The notes beneath the pieces were generated by a model. The model worked only from the letters and a program-made list of their open reading frames with translations, was not told the DNA's origin and did not search any database. 64,000 bases of DNA from Pocillopora damicornis (lineage: Eukaryota). Position 1 is the first letter of the stretch. Each line of letters starts with the position of its first letter. The stretch is taken from the NCBI RefSeq assembly GCF_003704095.1, contig NW_020847344.1, positions 434,001 through 498,000 of the forward strand, in the 5' to 3' direction. The position numbers and the translations under genes were made by a program. Below are positions 11,398 through 31,400 of the stretch, one piece after another.

Positions 11398-11646
11398 TAG
11401 AGCACTTTTCAATTGATCGTCACCACCGGGATCTATGATTGGTCAAGAAAAATTCGCGCGACTCTCTCAACCAATCAAATACACAAAATCCTAATCAATC
11501 GTGATTCGGTCAGTCACGTTTTCCCACGCTTCAAAACGTTAGCTTGTTTTCACCCTGTGTTCTCATTTGCTCCTTGTTTCCTTATGACTGGCCTTGGTGA
11601 AAACTCTGGCTGCAATTTTGTAACGTTCGAATGAAACGCGCTCTAA
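11398..11646. repeat. Dispersed MITE-like repeat (tagagc...gctcta termini, ccaatca-rich)
   Basis: Similar segments at about 41230-41480, 42290-42360 and 54050-54300. Confidence 0.55.
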
Positions 11647-13756
11647 AATACATAAATTTTAAGTAATATTAGACCTATGATTTCATATAATATATACACT
11701 TATATCAGTAACACAGTCCAGCCATAACATGGTCATATAGTTCAGCACACTAAGTTGAATTATGCTGGTGCAATACAAACCAATATGATAAAAATACGTC
11801 TTATTGCCTTAAAAATATATTTGTTATATTGTTCAGTAATCTAACTTCAATAAAATATGTTGACACACTTTAAAAATTAAGTTTGTATCACATACAGTAC
11901 TAAGATGCTTTCCACCTCTATAAAAAAAATTATTACTCTTCAAAACTTCTACACATCCAGTAAAGAAATAGACGGAACTTCTACGTATGAAATCTCCTTT
12001 GATGCTGACTTTATAAGAAATAAGTAAATTTTTCCTATCCACTAAAAGGTTATTAGCTGAATCAATTTATCTTAGACCGATTTAAGTTTATAATTGAATA
12101 ATAACATCATCTTTTGAAAAAAAACGTGAATAGAACAAAAAGCGATACGATAATGTGGCAGTCCTCTAGTTTTTTTTTAGTAAAACCAAAAGTACCCAGA
12201 GGCCCGCGAGTATGAGTTTGTCACAATACAGTTACGAGATAACCTTACAAAGGCATTCTTATTATATGAGATCTTTTTAAGTTAACATGCTGACTATGAA
12301 AAGAAACCAGAAAATTACCCACTAAAAAGTCCTCAGACTAAACATCTTCTCCTAATCTGATAAAAAACCGAAACAATCAGTGGTTACAACGATGTTGGTG
12401 TTGTTAAAACTGTTACAAACACTCGACCAAAATCCATCATGCAACGGTGCAAGAAGTGCAATAAGTACAGACATAGGAATTGTCTAGCAATTCACAATTT
12501 TTGATAAACTTTACGTAGTAAATAACACATAAGGAAAAAAAAGCAAAGAAATGAATCCCCAAGCTGTGTTCTCTATCATTCATATTTCATTCTTTATAAG
12601 ACAATATTAAACTTTAGTTTTCAAACTCGTTTCATTTGTCATCTTCTACTAATATTGACAACTTTAAACTGTGGCAAATGTGGAAACAGTTAAATCAAAA
12701 CACGGTGGCTTTATAAAGAGGTTATTTCTTGACACTGTGGAGTAAACAGTTTCCACATGATACTAAGTAAAAAAAGTCATTATTTTGTTAAAAATACTTT
12801 TCTCAGATCGCTATTACTTGGAAAATAATCTTGATTAAAATTCAGCCGGTAGCAATGCTATAAAAGCTAGTTTCCTTTAGCTTAACCATTACTGTATCAA
12901 CCAAAGTATGTAAATAGAACTTTTTGGATGTAAAAATGCTACCACTACTGGTTACGTGTAAACACGATGGAAAACCCCTAAGTAGGCATTTTATCTCTTA
13001 CATAAAGTGAAATAAATTATAACTTTTTAAACATCTAATTAGATACTATTATAAGAAACATAAAAAAGTATTTAAAATTGGGGGATTCTTCACTGGAATG
13101 TTTTCAGGGAAGTTCATGAATTTCTGCTTAATGTAAGCTTGTACTTCACAATTTAACAAAATCCTGAAAACACAGTAACATTATAGACAGTGTTCCACTT
13201 ATGGAAACTACATCAATGTTAAAAACATAATTTTATAAAACATTTAACATAATTTCAAATATGCATGGCTGGACTGTGTTATTGATATTAAAGTATTGAG
13301 AATTGAACTAAATTGTAGGAAAAATGTTTCAACTTATACTTAATTCTAAAATAGACAAACAAAAAAACTGCTACCTTCACCTTGAAGAAAAAATTATCAC
13401 CCCGCAAGTCAGACATGGCAAAAAATTAGCCACAGATGACTGTCTTCCCACCTTAGTATGAGATACTTATCTGGAACAGATTAACCATGCCACCTTGTCA
13501 AAAAGTCCTAAAATATGACAGGACAAATGTATTGTGCTAAAGGAAGAGACATGTTGGGAAAGAAGGGTGTCTCTTTGAAGAACCTTTGAATACAATTCCT
13601 GTTTCCAAAGATTGCACATACCCAAATTTTCAATTGTTTCAGAAATACATCTTTTCACTTGCTGATATTATTTTGGGTGAGAAGAAGAAGGCAAAGAGAG
13701 CGAGAGAGAGAAAGAGTAAAGCTGGAAGGCAAACATGATGAAAGAAAATTAATGAT

Positions 13757-16700
13757 CTAGAAGAAATTTTTAACCACCAGTTTGATTTTCTTGCGGCACA
13801 CTGGACATTTCTTTTTTTCTTCCTTTAGTCTCTCCGCACATCCAATGCAACACACAAGATGACCAGTTCTTCCATGAACAATACTAGCATTTCGAGGTTG
13901 CGTCAAGCAAATTATGCACAAGTCAGGTGTAAACCCTGATGCAGAGTTTTCATTGTTGAAGTTCTGTAGCAAAGTTTTGCTGGGATTTTCAGCTTTTGAT
14001 GTAGTGTGATTTGAAGCATGAGACAGTCTTTCAGTATTCTCCTTTACTGATGAAGATGAACCCTCAATATATGATGCAAGATTAGGAAGTGGCACAACTG
14101 TTGATAATGCCACTGTTGAGGATGGATGGTCAATGGTTGGTGTAACGGCAAGTGACGAAGATTTTTGAAGAGAATGTGAGCATGATTTGTCTGTTGATCC
14201 TGTTAAATCTATATTAGGTTCTGAAGTCAATCTATAAATAGAAAAGAGAAATGTAAAAATACCTTAGATAGTACTGCTTCCATATTGGTTGTGGTTATGT
14301 CAAGCTATCATGAACCTGAGTTTCGGACTCAATTCAAACACCTCAAATCAAAACTTACTGTCGAGTTACTGAAAATGAACAGATAGATTCCATGTTGCTG
14401 TGCCTGTTTGGCAAAAGATCACAGATGACATCACAATGTGGAAAACAAAAAGGGACATACAATGTACAGCCAAGTGTGTCACTGATGTTCTTGCCACATC
14501 ATAAAGTCTTCTGTAATCTTTAACTGTACAGACCCTCAACAACATTGAAATTCTAAAAAAGCAAAATGTTGATAATGATGATGTCATCTATGTGTCCATC
14601 CTCCAATACCCAGTCAAAATGCATGTAAAACTACAAATTAAACTGAATGTGTACAGACCTTTTCAATGTAGGCAGCCAGGCATGTCTCTCAATCCAGCAA
14701 CGAGCACATCGGGGAGAAAATGGATGGTTTTTCAAGTCACAATGTGAGCATGCCCAAAAGTCATCTTCATCAAATTCTGAATCAGATTCCCTATCCCCTT
14801 CATACTCATCTCCTCCTTCAGCCCCAGGATCCTCTTCTGAACTGGTTATATTTTCTTATAGAGAACAGTAAAAGCCAATGAGTATTGAGTTCAAATACTG
14901 TTACATATCTACCTCAATTCTGTTTTTTCTCTGTTCTGTCTGTTTTACTGTGGTAAAAGTTACTTGGGCATCTCAAAGGTTTATCCAAAATTTCACGTAA
15001 TTCAACTTGTGAAAATGCCTTTGCACTAAAATGTACACGTTGAACTCTGCAGCTCAATATCTCTTGCTCTGTACTAAACAAACCATCCCAGACAACACTT
15101 TGAATCTGCCCCTCTAGAAGGATGGGAAGAAACATTCCATGGAAATTAAATATAATTACAATTTTGGTTCCTTTGACTTCACATTTATTTCTGATAAATG
15201 TTGGCAAGTTGGTGATTCCAGCAGAAGACTTATGTACCATAAGTTCCCTCTTATATGTTCTTCAACCAACTGCTTAAAAATGCAAACAATGTTTACTATC
15301 ACAAACCAGTATCACTTTCATCGTCATCTTCCTCTTCTTCCTCAGGTTCTTCTGTGTCAGAATCAGGAGGCTCATATTCCACAGTCTCAACATCTCCTAC
15401 AACAAAATAAATACACATCAGCCTATCATAGTTAAGTAAGAAATTGACCAAAAAAAAAAGGGGCTGCACCCCTTCCTAAAAGGTTGCATGTACCTCATCT
15501 GTAACCAACCCTTGCTCTTTACAAAAATGACAAATCAGATGAGTCACTTTCAAATATTACTGACGTAAAAAGATAAGTTTACAAATTATCACTTATTAGG
15601 AGAAATTACAGCTGATCTTTATAGATCCCTCAAAGTAAATTTTAGTCTTCCCTTCTTTACAGCTCAAGTGCACAAAAGTAACATTATTTCAGCAAAGCAG
15701 TACTTAACCCTTTGACTCTAATGAGAGACCAAGACAGAATTTCTCCTTACAATATCAATACAAAATCAAGTAGATTACTGATGAGAGTAAATAAAAATAT
15801 GAATTAGGGGTTTATTGGTTGATTTAATGCCAAAGCCCCCTACTAACATGATAAGAATATGAAGGCAGACAGTATAGAGAATTACTAATATGATCACCGG
15901 AGTGAAAAGGTTAAATGTTGCAGGTTTTAGGAAGATGCTAACTTGCATACCATTCAGAAAAAAAAGATCATCTTCAGAGTCAGTCACAATAGCAGTCACA
16001 GCAGACTCGTAACCTTTCACAAAGTAAACTGTGCTGGATGATTCAGACACTTCACTCTCACTTTCTGATGCTCTTGTTGCTTTGAACCCAATACACCATG
16101 GAATTCGCTCTGGAGGACTGTAACTACCTTTCACCCCAAGAACATCTGGAAAACAAGAAAAACACTCCAGGTTAAAGTTCAATATGACAGTCAGATTTAT
16201 TTTTACTATGAAACATACGAGTAACACACTTAGTAGAGTTGTCTACAATTGCAGAAATTAATAAAGACATGGTTTTATACCACAACTAGTGTGTATTTCA
16301 CTCTAAATACACCAGCATTAAGAATCATGATTTTATAATGAAACTAACTGGCACCATGACAATTAAGTGGTCTGTTTATGAATGATGTTCTAATGACATC
16401 ATGCACAGCAAGATATCATATACTTTGGTCTTGGCCTTCAAAGGTAGAGAAGGGAATTTTCAAATCAAATACCCAAAAACAGGGAACACTTAAGAACATA
16501 ATCGGTTCAACTTTATCAACAAAACTGTTCATAGTTGAAATTGCATCTCAGGGCACAACCTTTGGCAGAAGACAAATATTTTTTTAGCAGTTAAATTCCT
16601 TCATAAAATAACCAAATATTTTTTAAATTACAAATAATGAGATTGGATCAGTTTATCCAATTGAAACTAATTTCCTTTTGAAGCAAGAAAGCTGACCACA

Positions 16701-19700
16701 AAAATACATCTAAAGAAAGTATCTCCATACCTGTCCATGATCCTCGTTTTCTTTTTCTACCTTCCACACTTTTCTTCTTACCAAAGCCTCCTGTATTATT
16801 TAAAACAATTAAGGTATAATGGGTCTTTCAGTAACCTGCCAAAACTGAATGTGGGCCACAAACTGGCATGACAGCATTTCAACCTTATTGATCTCTTCAA
16901 ATCTCATAACAGAATTATATCATTACTTGCATTTCACATTCAAATGCTGTAAACATTACTCTGAAAGAACAATATATTTATACCTTGTGGTTAACTCTCC
17001 TTACAGAGAACATTTAGTCAGATTGCCATAAGAGGGTTAAAGATAAACATTCTGCTCAGCACTACCATAATATTTACTGTAAGAGGGTGCTTAACAATAG
17101 ATGACAATGTTTTTCATCCTATACTAAATTGCAGGAAGTACATAGTTGCTTTATTAAGTTAAGAGAGAACACTTTTTCACACGCACTGAGTTGGTATGTT
17201 CAAGGATGGCTTAATGACATGTTGCAAAAACATGTCTGTGATAATAAAAATGAAAAATGTTAGATGCTAGTTATAACATGCTCATAGTCATGGTGCTAAT
17301 TTGGACACTATAAACATTGAACATTGGTTACCTTGCTCATTGTCTGAACTATCACACTGTGGACCAATCCGTATCTCACTAGAGAAATCAAATAAATAAA
17401 CATTCATGAATATAAATTAGTACAGCTTTAACTAACTGATGAATTAAGTAACACTCCTTCAAATTGGTCCATGAATTTCATTAAAGATCTGTTTTCTTGA
17501 ATGTATGGTGAGGTCATATGATTGTAATCTGACAAACAGAAACAATAGAATTGAGTTACAACAAAAAGAAGGTGGGTGAAAGGATTAACCTTTGAGCTCT
17601 GAGATGTTTTCATAACAGTTGGTTTTGGAGATCCCAACTTTTCCATGCACAGGGTCACACAAACAACAAAACATAAATAACTTGTTTAGTTAAATCATAC
17701 TAAAAGCCTCACATAAATAACATTAAATTAAGAGACAATTATTGGTACAAGGAAGCTTGTCACATCATGGATAGATGTCCAAAATCTTAATGCAATTTTC
17801 AGCAAAGTTATCATCTCAGAGAGAGCTTGCCTCTATTTTAAGGTACATTGACATAAATAACCATGGCCCCTAAAAATTGTGTTCAGTACAGTTTCCAAAC
17901 CATGAATCTTTCACCCTTTTCCAAAATCTCTCCATGTACATCCAATTCACAAACCACATATGTGTACACTGAATTTCACCTTTTAAATCAATAAGGGTGA
18001 AACATAAAGTGCACCTTTTAAGTGCTACCAAGTGTCTTACTCCTTAACAAACAAGGGGGAATTTTAGTCTATTTTGACAATCTTGGCATGATCAAATCCC
18101 TTATTCTCATAATTAACTAGTATTGGTAAGGAAATAAAGGGAGGAAGGTTTGTCCAGCCGCTTGGGACTTTTAAAAAACTGCATGAAATAGATGTACAAT
18201 ATAATAGTTTGCACTGCACATTAAAAATTCCAAGCAGTTGTTCCAGTTATGTCTTATGCAGGGCTTGCGCATTATGTTCTGTTGAAAGAATGAAATAAAC
18301 ATTTTTACTCCACCCTGATAACCCAGGGAGCATGCCAAGGCCAGCCCAAGAAGAGCCCTTATCTTTTTGCTGTAGAAAAAAAAAACAGGCATGGGGCATT
18401 AAAATAGCATTATAAAAATAGAGAAAAATTTGCATAAGCTAATTGGTGCAATGCTGTGCTGCTCCAACACTAATTCACCAGTTTTCATGAAGTCCTACAA
18501 TAAATTCATGACCTATGCTTTTTTGCACACCAGTTTGCTAGAACCTCCACTATTTATCAATTCACTGTGCTTAATGAATATAACCTAATTGGGGGATTGC
18601 ATTTATAGCAGTGAATGCATCAAGGAAAAAATCTGGTAGCCTAATTCAGATGCAGATAAAAAAAATGTGAGTTTGTATAATTTAGCAACATATAACATTT
18701 AAACTCATATTATTTGAAAGCAGTGAACCAAATCTAAATGAACGGGTGAGATTGTTTCGCTGGAGTGACCACGTTTTTCTAATAGCACTGGGGCAGTTGT
18801 TCAGACTCGTTCGATTAACAAGCCTCGACTTGTCCTAGGTATCAATACCGTAGTGATGCAGCCATCAGGATGGAATGCGAATGTCATTTATTGGCGATCG
18901 TAGATCACGAACGACATCTTTAAGCCTCTGTACCGTGCATTTAACAGTTCGGTAACTTATTTTGCACCACGCTCTCCTAGGTCAACAACATGTAAATGCA
19001 AATAAAATAACACGAGGTCTTGCTTTGTGAAGCGAAAAGCAGTGTGCTGTTGACGAGATAAAAGTATTGCAGCGTTTATCAGACGATGTAAGCCACTAAG
19101 TACCGAAAGATTTTGAGCTCTTAATATCGCTAAAAGAATGTCAAGATCGGCAAGAAGATGAAAAAAAGAAAAAAAAAACAATAAACCCGATCATATCACA
19201 CAACACACTGATCGAATGTAAGATGAGGGCAAAACAGTGGGTTGGTTCCTGGGTCACTTGGACGAAAAATGAGAAGAATAATTCAGAATCTTAACAGCAA
19301 GGCTCTTATGATAACAAACAGATGTTCTGAGGTCTGATTGAGAGGGAAAGGAAAGTAAAAACAGAGATGCCAAGAAATTAGATACGGTCTGGCGTTGAGC
19401 GTGGGAAAACGACCTTTAACATTTTGCTATAGCCGCGTCAGTCGTCGGCTAGAGCCATAATCCGGGCTTTATTTCAATTTGCGTAGTGCGATTGAGGAAT
19501 AATAATTCTTCACAGATAAGTAGAATGAGTCTTCAACAAATACACATGTTTGAGATACCTCCGACGAAAATGAAAGGCCGTAACGTGTAACTCGACCTCT
19601 TCACATGGGACAACAGATTATGTTCATGTAACTCGCGTATTAATGAATGGACAAAACCTTTCTTGAACAATCAACTCATCACCTAAGATTCACTGACCTC

Positions 19701-20361
19701 TAAAATTCGAGTGAAATTCTTACGTTTCTAAATAGCTAAGGGCGCGAAAATTCTCGGCTTACATTTCTCAAGTGTATTTTAGCGTGGGTACCATTCTGTG
19801 AAGATTTCGGATATGTCCTTTCACGTCCCAAGATATAGCGCGGCGAGAACTGTGGTATTCACAGCAATGGAAAACAGGGAAACGGCAAAATTACTTAATT
19901 AAAATGTATCCCGAGTTAAATGTTTGCCGTGGATTTTGTAATCAATGAGAGATTTCGCCATAACTTTTCCATGCGATTACAAAAAAATATTCACGGTTGA
20001 ATTTTACATTCAAAATATTGCAAAACAAATGTCTGTTTAGCTGACTATCACAATCACATTATTCAAGCAACCCTAGCGCAAAATTACCAATAAAATCAAG
20101 GAAATAACTACAGAGAGCAAAAAGGTTGGGCTTACAAACAACAGCAAGATGTGAATTGCGGACAAGCCGACTTCGCTCTGAAGGAAGTTATAGTAACACT
20201 ACTTATCGATACACTTGGGGCTCCCGATGACAAAATTTATCAAACAACTAGACTCATAAATAGTTGAAAGTACAGTCTAACTTACCAAGCCTTCTGCTCG
20301 ACCAAAGCGCCATCCATAACCTTCTTATCAGTCCCTTCACTCCGCGCTCACCGATACACAT
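13757..20361 (-). CDS. MDM2: MDM2/MDM4-family E3 ubiquitin ligase (single ancestral-type MDM)
   Basis: Last exon 14231-13757 has the MDM-type C2H2C4 RING (CIICLTQPRNASIVHGRTGHLVCCIGC...CPVC) with an aromatic C-terminal tail (KNFF). Exon 14854-14659 has a RanBP2 zinc finger (WACSHCDLKNHPFSPRCARCW). Acidic exon 15396-15308 (VEYEPPDSD...EEEEDDDES); exon 16146-15951; NLS-like exon ~16790-16731 (RKRKR); exons ~17378-17332, 17528-~17437 and 20361-20286. The start codon and 5' exons are less certain. Confidence 0.88.
15708..15910. mobile_element. TTAA-flanked piggyBac-like MITE in an MDM intron
   Basis: TTAA|ccctttgactc ... gagtgaaaagg|TTAA. Confidence 0.7.
18816..18835. promoter_or_regulatory. Candidate intronic p53-family response element (18/20)
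   Basis: TAACAAGCCT CGACTTGTCC, zero spacer, both CWWG cores intact, in MDM intron 1. Confidence 0.5.
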
Positions 20362-20693
20362 GAACTTTCCTGTCCTTGCGTTCTGTCCATGGACTTCGAA
20401 GACAAATGCTTCTACACTTAGGAGAATTTCAGACTGATCCTCATCCAAACTTTCAGCTGAAACACTGTTAGATTTTCTAAAACAATTCTCTTCTGTTGAG
20501 AAAAACCTCTCTCGAACAAAAGGAATTTAGAAATAAACGACAAAACCAGGTTTAAATTGGTATCAAAAAGAAATAATGTTGTTCAGTATTCGGTTCGAAA
20601 CCAGTAGTTCGAACCCTCGATGGACTTGAATTTCTCCCAAATGGCGCCGGAAGCTGGGCACACCGCACCGGATACCAAGGCTTGACAATGAGC

Positions 20694-20713
20694 GAACTTG
20701 TCCAAGCATGTCC
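20694..20713. promoter_or_regulatory. Perfect p53/p63/p73 response element in the MDM promoter
   Basis: GAACTTGTCC AAGCATGTCC is a 20/20 match to RRRCWWGYYY x2 with zero spacer. Confidence 0.85.
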
Positions 20714-20720
20714 TGATTAT

Positions 20721-20838
20721 CATTGGCTGTTTAAATTTTAATCTTAGTGCTGATTGGTCTGTTTTTGACAGGTTTCTTTTAGAGCTATTTCACTTTCGCG
20801 CGCTTTTTATCAGCTAGTTATCAATGGCAATTTCGCGC
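20721..20838. promoter_or_regulatory. MDM promoter module: two CCAAT boxes (about 20722 and 20753) and two E2F sites TTTCGCGC (20794, 20831)
   Basis: Direct motif matches clustered next to the p53 element; YY1-like ATGGCG at 20641. Confidence 0.6.
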
Positions 20839-22999
20839 GCATCAGTGCCCTTGTTGACCTTATTTTGTCAGTCGGGGAGCTTTCGCACACCAACCGCAAA
20901 TTGTTTTGCTTGAACAGGTCGAAACATGAATTTTGACCTGAAAGAGAAATTTCTGTAAAAAGAAAACGAATTTCTTTTTTTTTAGAAATGAATAGCTATG
21001 AATCAAGGCTTCTTCAAAAGCCTTCAAGAGCAACTTTTTACAGTCAAAATTAGAGCAGACAATTCCAAAGTTTGTTGTACTCAAAAAGTGGCGTGAGCAA
21101 CAATGAAAATAAACTTTATCATTCCACCTTAATTACGGCGCCCTTCAAGTAAATTATCCTAAATTGGATGGTTACGTGATTAACATAAATGCAAACATTT
21201 TAATGTCGCTTGGCATCAATTTATCCCCTCTGCTTTAGTGGGAATGTTTTCGCAGCCAAATATTTTCATTAAGACTAGTCCCTCTTGGTATGTTTGCAAT
21301 TCGTGGATTTTTTAAAATCTATGCGATGAAAATGTGAAATCTGTTTCCCCTCTTACTGTTTTCTCCTTAGTACAAAATTTCAATCGGCATTTATTGAAAC
21401 CTGTGATCCCTCGTAGGGATGAAATAAGGGGACAAGAGTGCAACCTTTTTTTTTAGGGACAGACGTTTTCATTGATTGATTGATTGGATTTTTTTAGTTT
21501 GGGGGTGGGGTGTGGGGGGAGAGGGAAGGAGGAGACTGCAAGTTTGAAATGCGAGAAACGAGGTTGAGCATTCCTGTGAGAAACCTTATCAAATACCCCA
21601 CCGAGGCTTGATGATCGAGGCAGGGAACCTTGCCATTCCTTCTGTGCATCTGTTGGATTGACAAGCTTGGAGAGATCTTGTTGTTTTAGCTTCGTCCTTT
21701 TAGTTTTCAGACACGTCTTTACACATCATAGGAAAAACCTCTTTTTTTATTTGACACCTTGGCCTTTCTGTGAGTTTAGGTTTGTGGTTGTCGAAATAAA
21801 TTTTACAAATTCGTCGGAGAAAAATCAACATATCCCTCGGTTTTTCAATCGATAGAGCACGTAGCGAATAAATTTTCAGCATTTTAAAAACTATACCGAC
21901 AATTTTAGAGCCAGTAGAAAGTAGAAAGCAATGCTAAAACAAGAAGAAATATTCATTTAACCTATGCCTAGGACAATGAGTTTGAAAAATTGAGAATAAT
22001 GCTACCTGCGGAGTAAAAATACAAGGCGCTTGGACGACTGACGAAAGCGAGCAAGATCCTCTTTTAAAAACCAGCAACTCCAATCCAGTTCAGTCGAGTT
22101 GCACTTCAGAGAACGGTATAGTCGTTTTTATGCCTACATTGCGGTTTCCGAGCTAAAGATGAAAACTCTCAGTTATGATTTAACGTCACGGTTGACAGAA
22201 TTTATTTTCAAACTAATGGAAGCTTGATCTTTCTGAGTTGCTCGGGTCATCGAAAACATGTCATGGCAGGAGCCGGTAAAACTCAACTGACCGTAAAATT
22301 TTGGCCGGAGTACCATATAATAATTACCTTGCTTGTTCGAGCCACACCGGGGAATATTGGCGCTAGGTTAATAAGTAGTTATTACTGTCGCGCAAAATGT
22401 TGGGCTCGTTTTCTTGAGCGCAGTTGTCGATTTATTGTCCAATATGTGACGAGCAACTTCATGAACATACAGTGATAAGTGAAAAATGTTGTAAGAATGT
22501 GAAACTTGAAAACAATAATTAAGAATATGTATGAGTTTATTGCGGTCAGGTTGATAAATATGACACTGTTAATGAATTTGTTGATTTCATGAGAATCGAC
22601 ATAACATAAGAGGAAAGTTCGTTTATCATAGAAAGTATCACTTTTATAATATGATTACCACTTTATGCAGTAAAGATAACATGCAGATATCAACGAACGA
22701 TAAAAATATAGGATATAAGAGATTTTTGAAGACTGAGAGTGTGCTACCTCAGATTAATAGTGATCGTAAAGGGATGATCAATATTAATTTCATTTTAAAC
22801 GAATATTTAAGGTGATAAAATTACCCTATAAAAGCATACCAATATCCAAATTAAAAAGAGCATTAAAATTTTATAAGCAATCCTGGTGTAAAATTCAAAA
22901 ACTAATCGGTGATGATAACAAAACAATTATACGGAGATGAATTTTTGTAAATATTATTCATCCCAATTTTCAACCAAAGGACACATCTCCTATGCTGTT

Positions 23000-23995
23000 C
23001 TTTTTAGCAGGACATCTGCAGCGCCTCTCTTACAACCATCTCTAAAATGAATTTCATAAATTCCACGTTGTTTGACAACCAATTCATTATTGACCTCAGC
23101 AAAATGCGAGCTGCTTGAACTGACAGTGTTAAGGGTACTGTTATCAAATTTGACGACTTTTTCGTTGTTGTTACTAGGACTGTGAATATAAAAAAATACA
23201 TTTTCAATTTCTGTTGATTTGTAAGTTTGCATTGCTGTCAGAGGTCGTCTTAATGACATAATTTACGTTACCAGCGTAAGTGCTTTGATATGGTTGAGGT
23301 TCTTTGAAGTTTATGATACTTCTTGTATTCATATTGAGATTGCCAGACACCATTTCTGACCCATCGATTTTTAAAAAAATTGTTCGTCTTCGTATCAATG
23401 TACCGTTTATTACTACTATCTGTTTGACTAATCGGGTCAGCTAGATTAGAAATTGCGTTTCCTTTCACATCGAGGCCGTCAGACAAATCGAGGGAGAAGG
23501 CTTTTGAATCAATATATATTTTGTTCATAACATCTTGTGGTGATGAATTGCTGCTGTCATAGTATGGAATCAACAGTCCTGATTACAAAGTCTGTGGAAG
23601 CAAGTTATCCATATCCGGCGACTTTTTCGCTAGTTATGTCAGTCATCTGATGATAATGTAACAGCGGCATCAGCATCATTTTGACCTCTTCTTAAATCAG
23701 TCATCCGCTTATTATCAGCATCCCATGCATTATTTTTTATCAATTTTTAAACCAGTTGAATCACCCTTAGGCCCTTGAATTTCATAAATTTCTCACCTTT
23801 TGGTGCTTGATCACCAGTATCACCTATCAGACCCTGAGCACCTGTATCACGTTTTGGTTGTCAAGCACCGGTATCATTTTTTGGACCCTGAACTCCTTGA
23901 GGACCAGCGGATCCTGGAGGCCCCTCCCTACCCTGTTCTCCATCATTACCTTTCAAATTTTCTTTAATGTAACTATCACCATTAAATGCTCCCAT
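23000..23995 (-). pseudogene. Collagen-repeat, tail-fibre-like viral protein pseudogene
   Basis: ATG at 23995 (MGAFNG...GEQGREGPPGSAGPQGVQGPK...), then repeats LDVKGNAISNLADPISQTDSSNKRYID and GNLNMNTRSIINFKEPQP. Confidence 0.7.
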
Positions 23996-24007
23996 ATATA
24001 CATATGA

Positions 24008-24400
24008 TTACATATTTTTGAAGTAGTGTTTGATCAATTTTTCATTATGATTGGTGCCGGTTTGTGAAAATGGTTTTATGACATCATAATAATCTTTTTG
24101 TCTGCTTGATTCATTAATGTAATACTGACAATAGTAACTACACAACACACTCATCAAATTTTGATACTGAGTACTGTTATAAAGATAAATCAATCCCCGT
24201 TTATCTGACAACTGAACAACTTCTGGTGGACAGAATGAATTCCGGGTTCAATTTTGTCATCCAAATTCGTGACGTAATAATAACCGTTTTTGAATTGATT
24301 CTGTATTTGATCCATTGAAAAAACACCATTGAAATTTTTGATTCTGAAGTATTTTATCCACTTAAAGATATCAAAGTTCTATATCACAGTGTCAACAAAT
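24008..24400 (-). pseudogene. Adenain-like (Polinton PRO) cysteine protease pseudogene
   Basis: Reads NFDIFKWIKYFRIKNFNGVFSMDQ...VTNLDDKIEPGIH, then a deletion/frameshift, then CPPEVV...YNSTQYQNLMSVLCSYYC. This matches the NLDD..GPGTHW and Q...S.LCG.YC catalytic motifs. Confidence 0.75.
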
Positions 24401-25463
24401 TCGGTTCTTAAAATATGAGTAACCCCGTTGTGACAACAGAAAATGTTTGTTTGGAGACTCTTTTAGTTGTGTTAATTTTTGTTTCTATTTGTGTTTCCAA
24501 TGGTTTGATAAATTTCTCTCCTTTATCTTCTTTGGGAGTGTCACGAATTCCTACCTTTTTGGGAGTGTCATGAATTTTTTCTCCCTTGCGAGTGTTAAAT
24601 TTGTCACAAATTTTACTCCGATAAGCTGACCTGTTTTGCTTCCAACATTTTCTGCACTTTTTTCGTTGGCTTTTGTTGCTGCTTTTGTGGCCAGATCTTT
24701 GGCAACTTTCCAGTCAGTTTGAATGACCAAGATCAAAAAATCCTTCATCATTTTGTATATTTTCAGCAGGCTTCTTGGTGTCCACATTGTAATACATATA
24801 TTGAGTAAGCGTTTCATGCGATCAATTTAAAAAAATTGATCTCGTTCGGCCAACTCCCACACTACTGACAAGTGCTTTTGTACACAGCTGACACCGATTT
24901 CACATACTTTTTAAAAGTATCTTTATTATCATATCTCACAACTGCACAATTAGTTTAGTAATAATTATCTCGATGCTTTTGTAAATACGGGCCGTAATAC
25001 ATTTTATGAATTGACCGGATATAGTTTGGTTGAATAGCTTTAAATGTTGTTTAAATTAAAAATCCTCGCCCTCTTTCATCGTGCAATAGAACCATCTACT
25101 GTCTTGCTATAGTTTGGTCAATTACAGAAAACCAAAGTAATAATTATTTATCACTTAAAAATATGTGTTATATGGAGAAAACTCGAAAAATCTTGGTGCA
25201 TACGCTGCGCGATGTATTATCAATTATTAGCGTTCCGCAACTGCACACGTTTAAAAAAAGGCGTAGTCATGAGTGGGGACTGAGATATGATGTATAACAC
25301 CTTGAGAATGTCAGAGAACACCAACCTAGCAAATATTTATGCTCTGATGTGTCCAAATTGGTGTTTTTTATTTTTGAGGTGTATGAAATATCTGTTTTCA
25401 GCCGAAGTTCAATCGAACCTCCTCTGAATATTTTGGTTTCTTTGGTTGAGCAAGTTACTTGTT

Positions 25464-28400
25464 TTATCTCGAACTCCTCATCGCTTTCAGCTGACGTTTT
25501 CTTCTGACGCCATCAGCTATAACATCTTTGATGGTTTCTTTCGCCAATAGTGTGTTGAATTCCATCAGCTGAGTCAAGCGATCAAATGCTTTGTGAGGGT
25601 AATGGAAGTTGAATGTGCTGTAATGATTATCAGGGTCTTCAAAAATTGCGAATGCTCCGAATTCCTTTTCTGAAGAGGTTTTGCGAGGTACACCTGGGGA
25701 GGTCAAACCGCAAAACATCAGCAAGTGATATATGGGAGATATATTGGACTGGCAGCCACAATGCACAGTCCAGATGAGCTAAAATTGTGCAGTTGAGAAT
25801 GAGTCTCTTCTTCTTTTGCTTTTCCTTCTTGTTTAGCATTGGCGTTTTGTCTTGGAGACCAGCCATTATTTATTGCTATGAAAAGTCAACTGAGTAAGTT
25901 TGTTAGGGATGCTTTTTGGTGAATTTCTTGGGGTAGATCATGTGACCGAACATACCTGGACGGCTATGGTCTTTGAAAGAGCCGTTCATCAACACAAAGT
26001 GTATGACTACGGGGCATTCTGGGTCTTCAGGATCTGAGAACACATAGAACTCCTTCAGACCATGTTTCTGGTATTGTTCCTCGGCATTAATGGGAGGGAA
26101 TTTCAATTTGTTCTTTCGTGCCCATTCTTCTGCCAGCAAAAGTTCCTATGGAAGATTAAAAGAGGATTGTTATCAATCAGCAATACTGTCAGCTTCTGTT
26201 TCACCATTTCTTCTTTATCGAGAACGACTTCTATAAAACTTGAGGTCTACAAACTTGTCCGAAATGCGCCCAAGAAATAAATTAAACTTGACCAAAATGA
26301 GGGGGAAACACGGATCATTGTCAGTATCTGGACCACTGCGTACCTTACGCTTCCTTAGCCTAACATTGATCCTGTTGTACCCAACATTGACCCTGTCTTG
26401 CCCAACATTAATCCTGTCTTGTTGACTGTTGTTGTGTTATGCTCAGTTGCTCGATACTAATCTTGATTCGAAAACACTAAGGAGCCTAGAGAGGAAGTAA
26501 GTAGTCTAATATTTATCTTGTTATATATGAGTAAAGCTTAGGTAGATGCAATTAAATCACCTCAAAGGGCATCTCTATCTCTTTGTCCCTTGCACTGAAG
26601 TCAAATGACAGGAGTACGTCGCATCCCCGCTGGGGTCTTATAACCAATGGATACGGAGAATTGAACACGAGCCCACTGTCAGCCAGGTATATGCGCTTAG
26701 CCTTCAGGGTAGGATGGTCAGCGGTATCAGTGACGTCTTCAGATTCTGCGTGAAAATATGTATTACAGGACTATAAAAAATTGCGATTTAAGGAAGGTTA
26801 TGCTCACTCTGAGTTTCCTGCGGATGTAATTTTGCACTGGTTCTCCCGGACAACCACTAACAACCGACAACTGTTTACGGACTGTTTTTACGTTTGAGAA
26901 AAAATAATTCATTGCTTTTAGCTTTTAACTCAGCAAACGACGGTGACTTACCGAAGGGGACTGGAGCGAACGCAAGCCCTAGACCACGCAAGTAATTATG
27001 CACCCTTCCCGCGCGACCGGAGCGAGTTTGTAGCACAGGGAACTTGTTCATAAATCTCTGCGCTATTCTGCCCAACAATCCAGGATCGTTATGATCTTCC
27101 TTTGGTTCTTCCATGTCTTCTTCATCAAAGACTGGTACTTCTTTTAGACCCTCAACGCCATGTTCCTCATCTTCACTGTCGCTTTCCTCGTCATCGTGTC
27201 CGTTGTCTGGATACAGAATCTTATCTGGGGGATGGAGGGATATTTTTTGTAAAAATCTCGTATTATTTAACGCACTAAGCCTTTAGTGCGGGCAAGATAT
27301 TTGATTGGCTGCCGAGTCCTCGTTTAACCCATCACAGAGCGCTAGCAGCAAAGCTAAAATACATATATCAATAATAGTCACATTCCAGAAAATTCACATG
27401 ACTTAGACTTTAGAGCCTTAAAAGGGTAATTTTTAGCCACAATTATAGCAAAGGAGATACATACGTAAGTCCTCTCTCATACTGGAGGAGCTGCGGCGAA
27501 ATTTTCTAATTGCGCTCGGTGCTTGACCCTCACCGAGCATGCGTTGCAGTAAAATGGTGAAGGCACTGCCCCAGATGCCTACGAAATGCAATGAGAAAGA
27601 TGGAATGTCAGCTTGGTATATTAAACACGCTTGGTTCCGTTTGCAATTCAATTTAGATCGTCTTTACCTGATAACCTTTGTGACAGAACATAAGAATATT
27701 CAAGGAGCTTATCGTGGGGGAGGGGAGGGAAGGGAAATTTTCAAGCTTTGCAAATGTTTTTTAAGCTCAAATGTTACATGCAAGAATTTTTTTGCTCAGA
27801 AAAAATGACTTGCATAACTTCCCCTAAAAAGAATGTTCTTGTACTCTGCCTACATCCCAGATATAATAATTTTTCAACTTGTCGATCCTTGAAAAAATGG
27901 CGACCTATATGAAACCCTAAATGGAGTTAAAGTCCACGAGAGGTCACCAACAAAAGTTTTTAATTAACTTATATTGACGTTTTCAGGTTGTAACCTCCTT
28001 ATACTGGTTATGGCAAGAGGCCGTACGTTTCCGTTAAATTTGATCACCCCAGCTACAGCTTGAGACTATATTTATTAATCTACAGTTTAGCATCCCCACG
28101 AACCCAGACAAAATCATCTTCTTCTTGAAAGTAAAATAAAAACAAACAGGAGAGTTGTTTAAGTGTTACTAACCTTGCAGATATTCAAGTGGAGGCTCAG
28201 GATACTTTGTGTGAAGGTGCCCACAGAAAAACTTGCTTCCAAAATCCTCCGTTTTCATAAAAGTGCCATATTTAGCCATTCCTATTTCATAAGGGCTGAA
28301 CTCCATCCATTCTGTTGTAAAAAGAACGTATCATACAAGCTGACGCATTTACAACTTGTCCGACTCTCACTACGTCTAGGCTAATGACAGAGTTCTTATA

Positions 28401-31400
28401 CCGTTTTCATCTCTTTGATCAAGTTTCATAATATTTTACACTTTTGATATCTTTATCATTTTTCAGTGAAGTACGCATGCAGTTCTATGTTGCAATATCG
28501 ATAATCTGACTTGGTCTCTCCAAGATCAGTAGTGATATATTTTACTCACGGCTTTATCATCATTTCTCCAATCTAACTGCTCCTTTTCTGCAGCCTTACC
28601 GCGTTCATTCCACAATTTTTACGCATCCAAATTTTCACACTATCCATGATTCTTTTATTACTATCACGCTAAATTTGTCTATGCCTATTTGGAATTGCTG
28701 TACAATATGGCGCAACTTAGACGAACGACATTTGAAATCTTACCATTGTATGCCTTTGCCGAAACATCATTCTTCACGTGCACACATGTGTAAAGCGGAA
28801 GGGGAACGTTCCCGTGTTTGACTGCGCCACGTTGATCGCTCAGTTTTGGAATATTTTTGCGCTAAAAACGAAATTCAAGAAACAATAACTTAACAAAAAT
28901 TACGGCTCTTACATTTGGCAGACTTAAAGAGCGGCTGAAAAGGAAACACCTGTCTTCTTAACATATTCAACAAACACGCTTTCAACTGAGATATTATTGG
29001 CAGACTTAGATTAGACGGCAAACCCTTCGACAACAAGGTGATCACAGACTAAGCGTGATCATACATTGAATGCAAACTGAAATTTAAAAAACGGCGTCAC
29101 GATGTAGTAGCGTCTGCGGTGAGACCTAAAATGAACTTGTGTATAGTTCTGCGCGGTTTGTGGCATCTTTTTGTCCTGTCATTATTACAGTTATTAATCT
29201 GAAAAGGATCAATAGGATTTCAAGTAATACTTACGTCTCTCAAGATGGTTTCACCCACGAGGTAGCCAAAGAAATCGGTAAAACTGATTGGCTGGCCTTG
29301 TATTTTTTTCTGATGGATGATTTGGATGTGCTTGTACAACCACGAAGGTGTCAACATCCAGATCCAGTTGTGTTGCACGTTTTGCCTCAGCTGTTCCATC
29401 ACTTTCTTTGGATGGATATTTGGAAATTCAGGATGAGAATACAACGTGGAGAGGTACCTAAAGTATGTAAAAGGTTTACAATGTATCGTGGTACATTGCG
29501 CAAAAAAACAGCGAAAAAAAAATTGATGTTAGCGCGCCGCGCGGAACTCTTTAGGTAAGGCGCACGAAAAGGAGCAACCGTATCCTTTGTGTGCCTCACT
29601 TCCACACTCCCGCGTGGTACGCAAAAATCAACCCTTTTTTTTTTGCTGATTCTTTTGCATGCACGACGGATTTCATTACAAACTAAGAGAAAATTACGGG
29701 TGAAAGAGGAACAATAAGGCGGAATATTTTGATTGCATCAAAATCTTTTTTTAATCTTTTTACTTACGCTGAAACGCAATTATTTTCGTTCAAAGAATAT
29801 CTTTCCCTGTCTTCTTTGAGGTCGTTTTTATCTACAAAGGTTTTCTCCTTGCAGTTTCAAGCTATATCGTTTTTGCTGGGAAAAACAGATTCAGGTTAAG
29901 CCCCTTATGTATAACACGGTAGACTGTCTTCTGTTCGAGAGACTATTGTCCGAGTTGTATAAACTTACCAAGTTGATCCTGACAATCCCGCGGCATACAT
30001 GGCACAGTCCAACACACCCATATCTTCTAGCGCACAAAACACACCACTAAGGCCAACCATGGCTCGAAAACCACCTCCGGACCCAACAATACCCACAGTT
30101 GGTATCTAGGAGGAAAATAACGACAATGAATAGGTAAGACAAACCAATGCAATTTATCTTTGAGCTTTAATTTGACACTGTCTCCAAATACTTTAAATTG
30201 GTTACCATCAGAAACCTCATGTTCACCTGTTCCTAGGAACTTCGCATTCACCCGTTCAGCAATCGACGAGCTGGGCCAGAAGTGGGAAGGGTTGGATAGG
30301 GGAGGGTAGGTAGGGATTTGTGCCCCACGAGATAAAAATATACCTTAAATTTGTTAATGCTTTAGTACCTCATACCATAAAGTGCCGAAAGTTGTTGAAT
30401 GTTGTCAATGTACAACACAAAAAAAGTTATTGAAAAACGAAAATATTGTTTATCTGAATACCCCAAACGCTTGACCGAGCCTGACTTCTAAAGGTGTTTG
30501 TGAGAAGGAAATTACACGGAAAAAAATAGAATAATAGGCTAACCTCATCCATACTCTTTGGTCCTCTTGGTCCGAGAAGCTTCCTCATCGCTTGAAACAA
30601 GAAAGGTTTCCTGTTCTCTCGAAAATCGATTTCATCCTTACATAGTTTCAAGCTGTATCGCATGTCACGGGGTTCTGCACTATAATGCAAATTATTCTTT
30701 TCAGTTTATTGTTTGCATTTTTGATGGAAGGATGACCTTTAGTAAGACAAAATGAAAAATTTACCGGTTTTTAAGCTCGAGCGTAATGTCCACTTCTGAA
30801 GTCTGCATGCAAAAATGAAGAAAGAAGTAGACAACGTTAGAACTGTTTGAAGACATTTAACAATTTTGACACAAATTCTAATCGAGCTTAAAGTCCGAGT
30901 AAAAAGTGGATTGGTTAGTACAAACAAGAAATTTCTATCTAAATTATGCTGTATTTTTTTCAATCACTGATATGTAAAACACAGAAGTGTACCTACGTCG
31001 TAAAACAGATATCAGTACACACTCCTCACCACCAGTTAAACAATAAACATCAATTAGTGTAAACATAATCGAGGCTTTCTGACAAAAATAATCACGGAAA
31101 TAGTTGCAGATGAAAATGACAGTTTACAATACTTTTGGTCTCGTTAGTCGTTACACAATTTCCTAAACTGTAAACAAAATCAGTACCTGTCGAAATACGA
31201 AAGTTTTGCGCAAAATCCTATCGATTTCCAGACCACTCAAGGGAAATGTCTCTGTTTCCCCGACCAAATCATCACTAAATGTATCATCTTCCATCAGTGT
31301 AATATCTGAGGAAGAGAAAACCAAAACCAAGTTGATGATTAAGAAGACAGTGAAAGAAAAGAGAAATCTTCCGTTCTTAAAGTTTAAAATCAGTTCCATC

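What the first reader, a model, noticed from the sequence alone, without database searches (positions are those of the whole stretch)
16731..20361. MDM protein appears to lack a SWIB/p53-binding domain
The RING, RanBP2 finger, acidic tract and NLS-like motif are all present, but the reconstructed sequence N-terminal of the NLS is only about 80 aa. I see no SWIB motif (such as LGQYI..K.LYD...H.V.C..D.LG) in those exons or in the 2.7-kb first intron. SPYIQENRSLMKFMDQF faintly recalls the last SWIB helix and may be a vestige. Inference: an E3 that cannot bind the p53 transactivation domain in the vertebrate manner. The 17437/17378 junction phase is uncertain.
Basis: partly seen in the sequence, partly recalled or inferred. 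Interest (0 to 1): 0.7.

Follow-up and report, generated by a model that had tools for sequence, protein, structure and literature searches.

The report
Coral MDM2 without its p53 grip
This stony-coral gene for MDM2, the enzyme that normally grips and destroys p53, has no p53-gripping domain (already reported for corals), but a soft-coral relative keeps that domain and the gene carries a perfect consensus p53 site at its start, so p53-family proteins likely still switch it on.

Summary
RNA contigs of 4 of 4 runs splice 20286 straight to 17378. The protein starts at ATG 20317 and has 364 aa, with 37 aa before the basic motif. Pfam and an MDM-specific profile find no SWIB. It is a Pocillopora MDM, and cnidarian loss is in print (PMC5543598).

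Three things go beyond what I found in print. (1) The soft coral Xenia keeps a full SWIB (41.7 bits) and groups with hexacorals 100/99, so the loss likely lies on the hexacoral stem. (2) Stony-coral p63-like proteins keep the box-I frame but have Phe for Trp23 in 8 of 8. (3) A perfect p53 element lies 377 bp upstream of the ATG, one of 25 in 234 Mb; a second, near-perfect one sits beside an alternative first exon.

Likely reading: a p53-family-inducible RING E3 that has lost the classical grip. Its substrates are untested.

The parts
20694..20713 (.). Perfect zero-spacer p53-family response element (two RRRCWWGYYY half-sites), 377 bp upstream of the ATG; function predicted
   Evidence: 1 match in the window, 0 in 100 shuffles; 25 such sites in 234 Mb, reversed control 14; no difference listed inside it in the 3 runs that cover it
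20286..20702 (-). Exon 1: 5' UTR and codons 1-11; 5' end approximate
   Evidence: RNA contigs end at 20605, 20631, 20661 and 20702 and join to 17378 in 4 of 4 runs; contigs cannot show a start
20315..20317 (-). True start codon (MDGALVEQ...)
   Evidence: 364-aa ORF with in-frame stop upstream; 2 differences from XP_058958408.2; same N-terminus in Stylophora, Orbicella, Oculina, Porites, Montipora
20286..20361 (-).
18849..19366 (-). Alternative first exon; gives an in-frame 6-residue N-terminus with a stop upstream, no SWIB
   Evidence: joint 18849>17378 in 1 of 4 runs (X10); translation
18816..18835 (.). Second p53-like element (both cores intact, one outer mismatch per half), 14 bp past the alternative exon's donor; predicted
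   Evidence: only two such sites in the window, this and 20694; shuffles average 0.24 per 64 kb, 1 of 200 reach 2; criterion chosen after seeing the site
17437..17528 (-).
   Evidence: skipped by the 20286>17378 joint; no Pfam match; -1.6 bits or less with the MDM SWIB profile
17332..17378 (-). Exon 2 (47 nt)
   Evidence: joints, GT..AG ends
16731..16790 (-). Exon 3, with KKK and RKRKR (residues 38-42, 16744-16758), predicted NLS
   Evidence: RKRK kept in 6 of 8 coral rows, the other two being N-truncated
15951..16145 (-). Exon 4: aromatic motif IPWCIG (16084-16101) and DSEDDLFFL (15955-15981), start of the acidic region
   Evidence: these align with LPWWF and DDLWFL of Mdm4-like rows
15307..15396 (-). 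Exon 5, acidic tract
14659..14854 (-). Exon 6, acidic end and RanBP2-type C4 zinc finger (14676-14756)
   Evidence: best PDB matches are MDM2
13757..14231 (-). Coding part of exon 7: Ser/Thr-rich linker, C2H2C4 RING (13760-13918), stop codon; the 3' UTR runs on to at least 11985
   Evidence: eight zinc ligands invariant in 17 MDMs

Best explanation
This is the MDM2/MDM4-family gene of a Pocillopora coral; its spliced mRNA encodes a 364-residue protein with acidic region, zinc finger and RING but no p53-gripping SWIB domain, and it likely works as a nuclear ubiquitin ligase that p53-family proteins still switch on through a predicted promoter element and that would restrain them only weakly, through its acidic region. 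Shown: gene structure, absence of SWIB, intact RING, the consensus element, Trp23>Phe in coral p63-like proteins, a full SWIB in an octocoral MDM. Inferred: SWIB was deleted on the hexacoral stem (about 0.85); the RING is an active E3 (about 0.85); a p53-family protein, probably the p63-like one, binds 20694-20713 and induces the gene under stress (about 0.75). Least sure (about 0.4): the induced MDM closes a weaker feedback loop by contacting the DNA-binding domain through its retained aromatic and acidic motifs.
For: Splice joints in 4 of 4 runs and the ORF. No SWIB by Pfam, custom profile or tblastn. The coral N-terminus aligns with the post-SWIB part of other MDMs. Xenia MDM SWIB 41.7 bits and unnamed P0231 39.8 bits, cut-off 25; they group with hexacorals 100/99 on columns that exclude SWIB. 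RING: eight zinc ligands invariant; Arg479 and Phe490 positions kept; PMC6372010 ties that Arg to E3 activity and notes placozoan Mdm is active without Cys449 (passages). Element. Trichoplax Mdm has p53-bound elements 320-540 bp upstream (PMC5039725), and Nematostella nvp63 binds and activates the vertebrate consensus (PMC1964547). Partner side: 0 of 42 coral/anemone-type p53-family proteins have FxxxWxxL, against 50 of the other 78; in Trichoplax Trp23 is the only anchor kept. Secondary route: a review states that MDM4's acidic WW and WF motifs restrain p53 DNA binding and that MDM2-A/B, lacking the p53-binding site, keep p53 ubiquitination activity (PMC12096895).
Against: Nothing here shows binding, induction or ubiquitination. 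The element rests on one genome: only close relatives were laid, and 20 unchanged bases mean little at about 2% divergence. Perfect sites are only modestly enriched genome-wide (25 against 14), so many are chance. Sites with up to 2 mismatches are at chance level in the window (4 against 2.66). [quoted passage not shown] The coral motifs are degraded (PWC for PWW, LFF for LWF), and Xenia lacks the PW motif. RPL11 contacts are only partly kept: 5 of 8, with Ser317, His318 and Asn328 changed (against PMC4526736). Octocoral evidence is one named species plus two unnamed records; the tree has no placozoan root.
Confidence: 0.5

Rival explanations
1. Open loop: p53-family proteins induce the gene, but the ligase no longer touches them. 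It acts downstream on other substrates, as SWIB-less human isoforms such as p76 do.
For: Both halves of the classical contact are gone. Human p76 does not lower p53 and targets MDM4 (review passage). RING and zinc finger are strongly conserved across 8 hexacoral genera, and the element is present.
Against: No substrate is identified. The two aromatic motifs that align with MDM4's p53-restraining motifs persist (Trp kept in 8 of 8 hexacoral rows).
Confidence: 0.33
2. Fully uncoupled, the published view: MDM and the p53 family no longer regulate each other in corals, and the consensus element is chance.
For: PMC5543598 and PMC10303687 suggest no regulation where both domains are missing. The reversed pattern gives 14 chance-like sites against 25.
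Against: The chance that one of 25 sites falls in a given 1 kb is about 1e-4. A second near-perfect site lies at the other first exon. The position matches the Trichoplax elements.
Confidence: 0.12
3. Split or hidden SWIB: a rare isoform, a distant upstream exon or a separate gene supplies the domain.
For: Alternative first exons exist (1 of 4 runs here; longer Acropora models). The assembly has 4393 contigs, and genome searches match exon by exon.
Against: Alternative N-termini score nothing: 82 of 83 cnidarian records (many of them fragments) at 0.1 bits or less, Xenia the exception. Over-cut-off PF02201 hits lie on two other contigs and read as non-MDM SWIB proteins (labels recalled). Whole-protein and SWIB-only queries found no SWIB-region match in the genome (not found with these queries). 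The p63-like partner has lost Trp23.
Confidence: 0.04

Closest known systems
SWIB-less cnidarian MDM of Nematostella, Hydra and Acropora digitifera (Aberg et al. 2017, PMC5543598)
   Same: Acidic region, zinc finger and RING without the p53-binding domain; p53-family proteins without an intact MDM-binding motif.
   Different: That paper treats the loss as cnidarian-wide and the TAD as lost. Here an octocoral keeps SWIB, the coral p63-like protein keeps box I with Trp23>Phe, and the promoter has a perfect p53 element.
Pocillopora verrucosa Mdm2 XP_058958408.2 (NCBI annotation)
   Same: Same 364-aa protein, 2 differences.
   Different: Automatic name only; I found no functional study.
Xenia sp. 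Mdm2-like XP_046851656.1 (octocoral)
   Same: Sister group on the tree; shares the G-x-x-G-G-D-E and NHP motifs before and in the zinc finger and DDLFF.
   Different: Has a full SWIB and lacks the PW motif. Whether it binds a p53-family protein is untested; human Gly58 and Val93 positions are changed (read).
Trichoplax TaMdm2-Tap53 (PMC5039725)
   Same: Single MDM, p53-type elements a few hundred bases upstream of the coding region.
   Different: Keeps SWIB, and Tap53 keeps Trp23; binding and degradation were shown.
Human MDM2 isoforms without the N-terminal domain (p76, MDM2-A, MDM2-B; PMC12096895)
   Same: RING kept, primary p53-binding site missing.
   Different: They coexist with full-length MDM2 and act partly through it; here the short form is the only form found.

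Membership tests
MDM2/MDM4 family | C-terminal C2H2C4 RING | tested here: met
   C312, C315, H326, H331, C335, C338, C349, C352 invariant; top PDB matches are MDM2 and MDM4
MDM2/MDM4 family | Central acidic region followed by a RanBP2-type C4 zinc finger | tested here: met
   PF00641 19.9 bits, under the cut-off of 27; best PDB match MDM2 finger, E 4.7e-7; profile aligns to human MDM2 246-490, E 9.7e-30
MDM2/MDM4 family | Orthology by phylogeny | tested here: met
   Hexacorals plus octocoral-type rows form one side of a branch against bilaterian MDMs, 100/99; 35 of 36 rows used; no outgroup
Four-domain MDM (vertebrate and placozoan type) | N-terminal SWIB/p53-binding domain | tested here: not met
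Four-domain MDM (vertebrate and placozoan type) | Partner motif F19-W23-L26 in a p53-family protein of the same genome | tested here: not met
   The p63-like gene has Leu/Phe/Val at these positions; the other two paralogs show no such motif
MDM2-type active E3 | E3-supporting RING residues and aromatic C-terminal tail | tested here: met
   Arg at the 479 position, Phe-Phe at 489-490; Cys449 is Ser; sequence only
MDM2-type active E3 | Ubiquitin transfer to a substrate | not testable with these tools
   needs an assay
MDM2-type RPL11 sensor | Contacts D294, E296, D301, S317, H318, W323, N328, W329 | tested here: inconclusive
   5 of 8 kept; H318, whose mutation abolished binding in human MDM2, is Arg
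p53-inducible MDM gene | p53 response element at the promoter or first intron | tested here: met
   perfect site 20694-20713, near-perfect site 18816-18835; sequence only
p53-inducible MDM gene | Binding and induction in vivo | not testable with these tools
   needs EMSA, ChIP and expression after damage
SWIB-less cnidarian MDM (Aberg 2017) | MDM central and RING domains, no p53-binding domain, in a cnidarian | tested here: met

The most novel reading that the evidence does not exclude
Hexacorals run a half-rewired p53-MDM circuit. The p63-like factor still induces MDM through a perfect promoter element, but the SWIB-TAD contact was dismantled on the hexacoral stem (SWIB deleted, Trp23>Phe), while soft corals kept the domain. 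The conserved core of MDM function would then be SWIB-independent, and Anthozoa would offer a matched natural pair with and without the druggable pocket.
Probability: 0.5. Interest if true: 0.7.

Novelty: new member of a known kind. Interest (0 to 1): 0.45.

Why it matters
The headline loss is known, so it adds little alone. The refinements matter for two open questions. First, when was the p53-MDM2 contact lost? An octocoral with SWIB narrows a published phylum-wide statement to hexacorals (plus a separate loss in Hydra, if that report holds). Second, what does MDM do without the pocket? An animal whose only detected MDM lacks SWIB, yet seems to remain a p53-family target, is a natural test of pocket-independent MDM2 functions, and Nematostella makes it testable. 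It also bears on how reef corals control p53-family activity under UV and heat stress.

Tried and rejected
AlphaFold2 on the 8-sequence coral alignment gave mean pLDDT 36 and did not even fold the RING, so it says nothing about the N-terminus and no fold search was run. A complex prediction of the p63-like DNA-binding domain with MDM residues 52-128 gave no answer (score 0.01, alignments not used); this is evidence neither way. I considered the exon-1 upstream-ORF frame (20257-20526) as a SWIB remnant: rejected, -2 bits or less and no Pfam match. The open frame at 14914-15261 is not an exon: it is skipped in 4 of 4 runs. Other MDM-like RINGs in the genome as a hidden full MDM: C40 is a C1/ZZ-finger plus RING gene; C469, C3961 and C4042 look like partial copies, and the stretches held gave 0 bits or less with the SWIB profile. 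The genome could not be searched with a multi-sequence profile, so genome-wide absence rests on PF02201 and single-protein queries. The one metagenome scan returned only the source contig of P0231, so no other coral MDM promoter was obtained. No named octocoral or medusozoan p53-family protein was among the 120 listed, and no named medusozoan MDM was retrieved. The Atlas search only confirmed MDM2-family identity for Xenia. Earlier-findings look-ups gave nothing on this locus. Four papers were not held: Momand 2011, Cross 2011, Wei 2016, Huang 2018.

Full report
Gene structure. RNA contigs of 4 runs from 4 studies were laid on 11500-23500. All four show six GT..AG introns, the first joining 20286 directly to 17378; the loose ends at 20286 in both RNA-type runs read on into the same exon. 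The exons are 20286-about 20700, 17332-17378, 16731-16790, 15951-16145, 15307-15396, 14659-14854 and 14231 onward. The spliced ORF starts at ATG 20317, has an in-frame stop upstream and encodes 364 aa. It differs at 2 positions from Pocillopora verrucosa Mdm2 XP_058958408.2, so the window is from a Pocillopora coral. One of four runs shows an alternative first exon (18849-19366) that adds only six residues in frame.

No SWIB. Pfam finds the RING and a sub-threshold RanBP2 finger but no PF02201 in P0001-P0008, while P0009 scores 30.6 bits. SWIB was found in 45 of 64 longer homologues scanned; 44 of these plus P0009 built an MDM-specific profile. It gives at most 2.5 bits on the window and nothing on the mRNA frames among the top 25 rows, and held-out full domains score 63-98 bits. 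Adding two octocoral-type domains did not help (-1.6 bits at best; shuffle maximum 0.8). Planted pieces from the domain's core were detected, edge pieces were not (7 of 13 at 9.7 bits or more). In a 17-row alignment the coral protein begins opposite the post-SWIB linker of other MDMs. Genome-wide, PF02201 passes its cut-off only on two other contigs, whose exons read as SMARCD-like and UAF30-like proteins (labels recalled). Single-protein queries found no SWIB-region match, which is weak evidence in an intron-rich, fragmented assembly.

What is known. Aberg et al. [quoted passage not shown] Mihalic et al. 2023 (PMC10303687; passages) repeat this. A text search of 8 supplementary files of the 2017 paper found none of the six taxon names tried; figures and alignments held as pictures could not be seen and may bear on this.

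The loss is narrower than published. Among 83 cnidarian MDM records, many of them fragments, only Xenia sp. XP_046851656.1 scored (81.4 bits; the rest 0.1 or less). Pfam confirms its SWIB at 41.7 bits, and that of an unnamed relative P0231 at 39.8; a second unnamed relative, P0232, begins inside the domain (14.6 bits). A tree on columns after the SWIB (35 of 36 rows; the Saccostrea row was dropped for lack of an anchor motif) puts these three beside the eight hexacorals, 100/99 against bilaterians. Contamination by a bilaterian is therefore unlikely. The tree has no outgroup; the direction rests on SWIB in Trichoplax (PMC5039725) and bilaterians. Since soft corals and hexacorals are sister groups (own knowledge), the loss likely lies on the hexacoral stem. 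I could not check Hydra. Paper searches for an octocoral MDM (also 6, 40, 47, 76; listings only) showed no such report, but most subscription papers and Momand 2011 are not held.

The partner. The genome has three p53-family genes. Of 120 listed homologues, 42 map best to these genes at coral or anemone level (some are fragments); 0 of 42 have FxxxWxxL, against 50 of the other 78. The p63-like paralog still has a recognisable box I. In 8 stony-coral rows EPxLSQ(E/D)T is followed by Phe in 6 of 8 (Leu in Pocillopora and Stylophora), then Phe at the Trp23 position in 8 of 8, and Val or Ile at Leu26. This genome's exon reads LSQETLDQMFSSV. PF08563 reaches 17.6 bits in the Acropora-cluster protein, under the cut-off of 20, and does not report the Pocillopora protein. 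In Trichoplax Trp23 is the only anchor kept and binding survives, so the corals changed the residue that appears to matter most. Pankow and Bamberger (PMC1964547; passages) had already noted N-terminal TAD similarity in nvp63 without the tryptophan motif.

The promoter. At 20694-20713, 377 bp upstream of the ATG and at the 5' ends of the RNA contigs, lie two perfect p53 half-sites without spacer. It is the only such site in the window, with 0 in 100 shuffles, and one of 25 in 234 Mb, against 14 for the reversed pattern. The chance of one in a given kilobase is about 1e-4. With intact cores and one mismatch allowed per half, the window has just two sites; the second is 14 bp past the donor of the alternative first exon (1 of 200 shuffles reach two; criterion chosen afterwards). 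Under a plain two-mismatch rule the count is at chance (4 against 2.66). Human MDM2 has p53 elements in intron 1 (PMC12096895; passages), Trichoplax has bound elements 320-540 bp upstream, and nvp63 activates the consensus. Conservation in other corals could not be tested beyond close relatives.

Mechanism. The RING keeps all eight zinc ligands, the Arg at 479 and an aromatic tail, so it is likely an active E3 (PMC6372010; passages). Two aromatic motifs persist: IPWCIG, with Trp in 8 of 8 hexacoral rows, and DDLFF. They align with LPWWF and DDLWF of rows that I read as Mdm4-like (matching these to MDM4's WW and WF motifs is recalled). A review says those motifs restrain p53 DNA binding and that SWIB-less MDM2-A/B keep p53 ubiquitination, but also that p76 promotes p53 activity. 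The primary papers were not held. RPL11 contacts are 5 of 8 kept, without His318 (PMC4526736 passages), so nucleolar-stress sensing is doubtful. I therefore commit to a p53-family-induced ligase that feeds back only weakly, through the acidic region (overall 0.5), with an open loop acting on other substrates as the close rival (0.33).

Verdict. The octocoral exception, the Trp23>Phe change and the promoter element are the parts worth following. Interest 0.45.

Noticed in passing
window 20317-20444 (-): Three upstream ATGs in the MDM 5' UTR, one opening a 65-aa ORF that overlaps the start; may dampen translation, as recalled for human MDM2's long UTR. One run lacks 14 bases at 20438.
   Followed up: partly
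G000:C469:324335-324490, C3961:88486-88614, C4042:84864-84986 (L018-L020): Three related partial MDM-like copies: Glu-rich tract plus a RING with a damaged end; two also match MDM residues 60-117. Possibly processed or decayed duplicates.
   Followed up: partly
G000:C40:382-2731 (L028): A separate gene with repeated C1/ZZ zinc fingers and an MDM-type C2H2C4 RING.
   Followed up: partly
G000, 25 perfect p53 elements, e.g. C3549:198991, C3883:552096, three within 900 bp on C3739: A short list of candidate coral p53-family target genes; neighbours not examined.
   Followed up: no
P0231, P0232 cluster, L030:334-1797: Octocoral-type MDM appears as long uninterrupted ORFs, also on long contigs, which suggests few introns, unlike the seven-exon coral gene.
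   Followed up: no
window 22241-24826 (-): Fragmented ORFs with a collagen-like repeat; one RNA run has a deep contig over 22241-23500. Likely a decayed mobile element upstream of MDM.
   Followed up: no
window 25900-30105 (-): Exons of a cytosolic phospholipase A2-type gene (PF01735) upstream of MDM on the same strand.
   Followed up: no
window 15721-15770: A very high-copy short repeat in intron 4 (depth over 10,000 and many loose ends).
   Followed up: no
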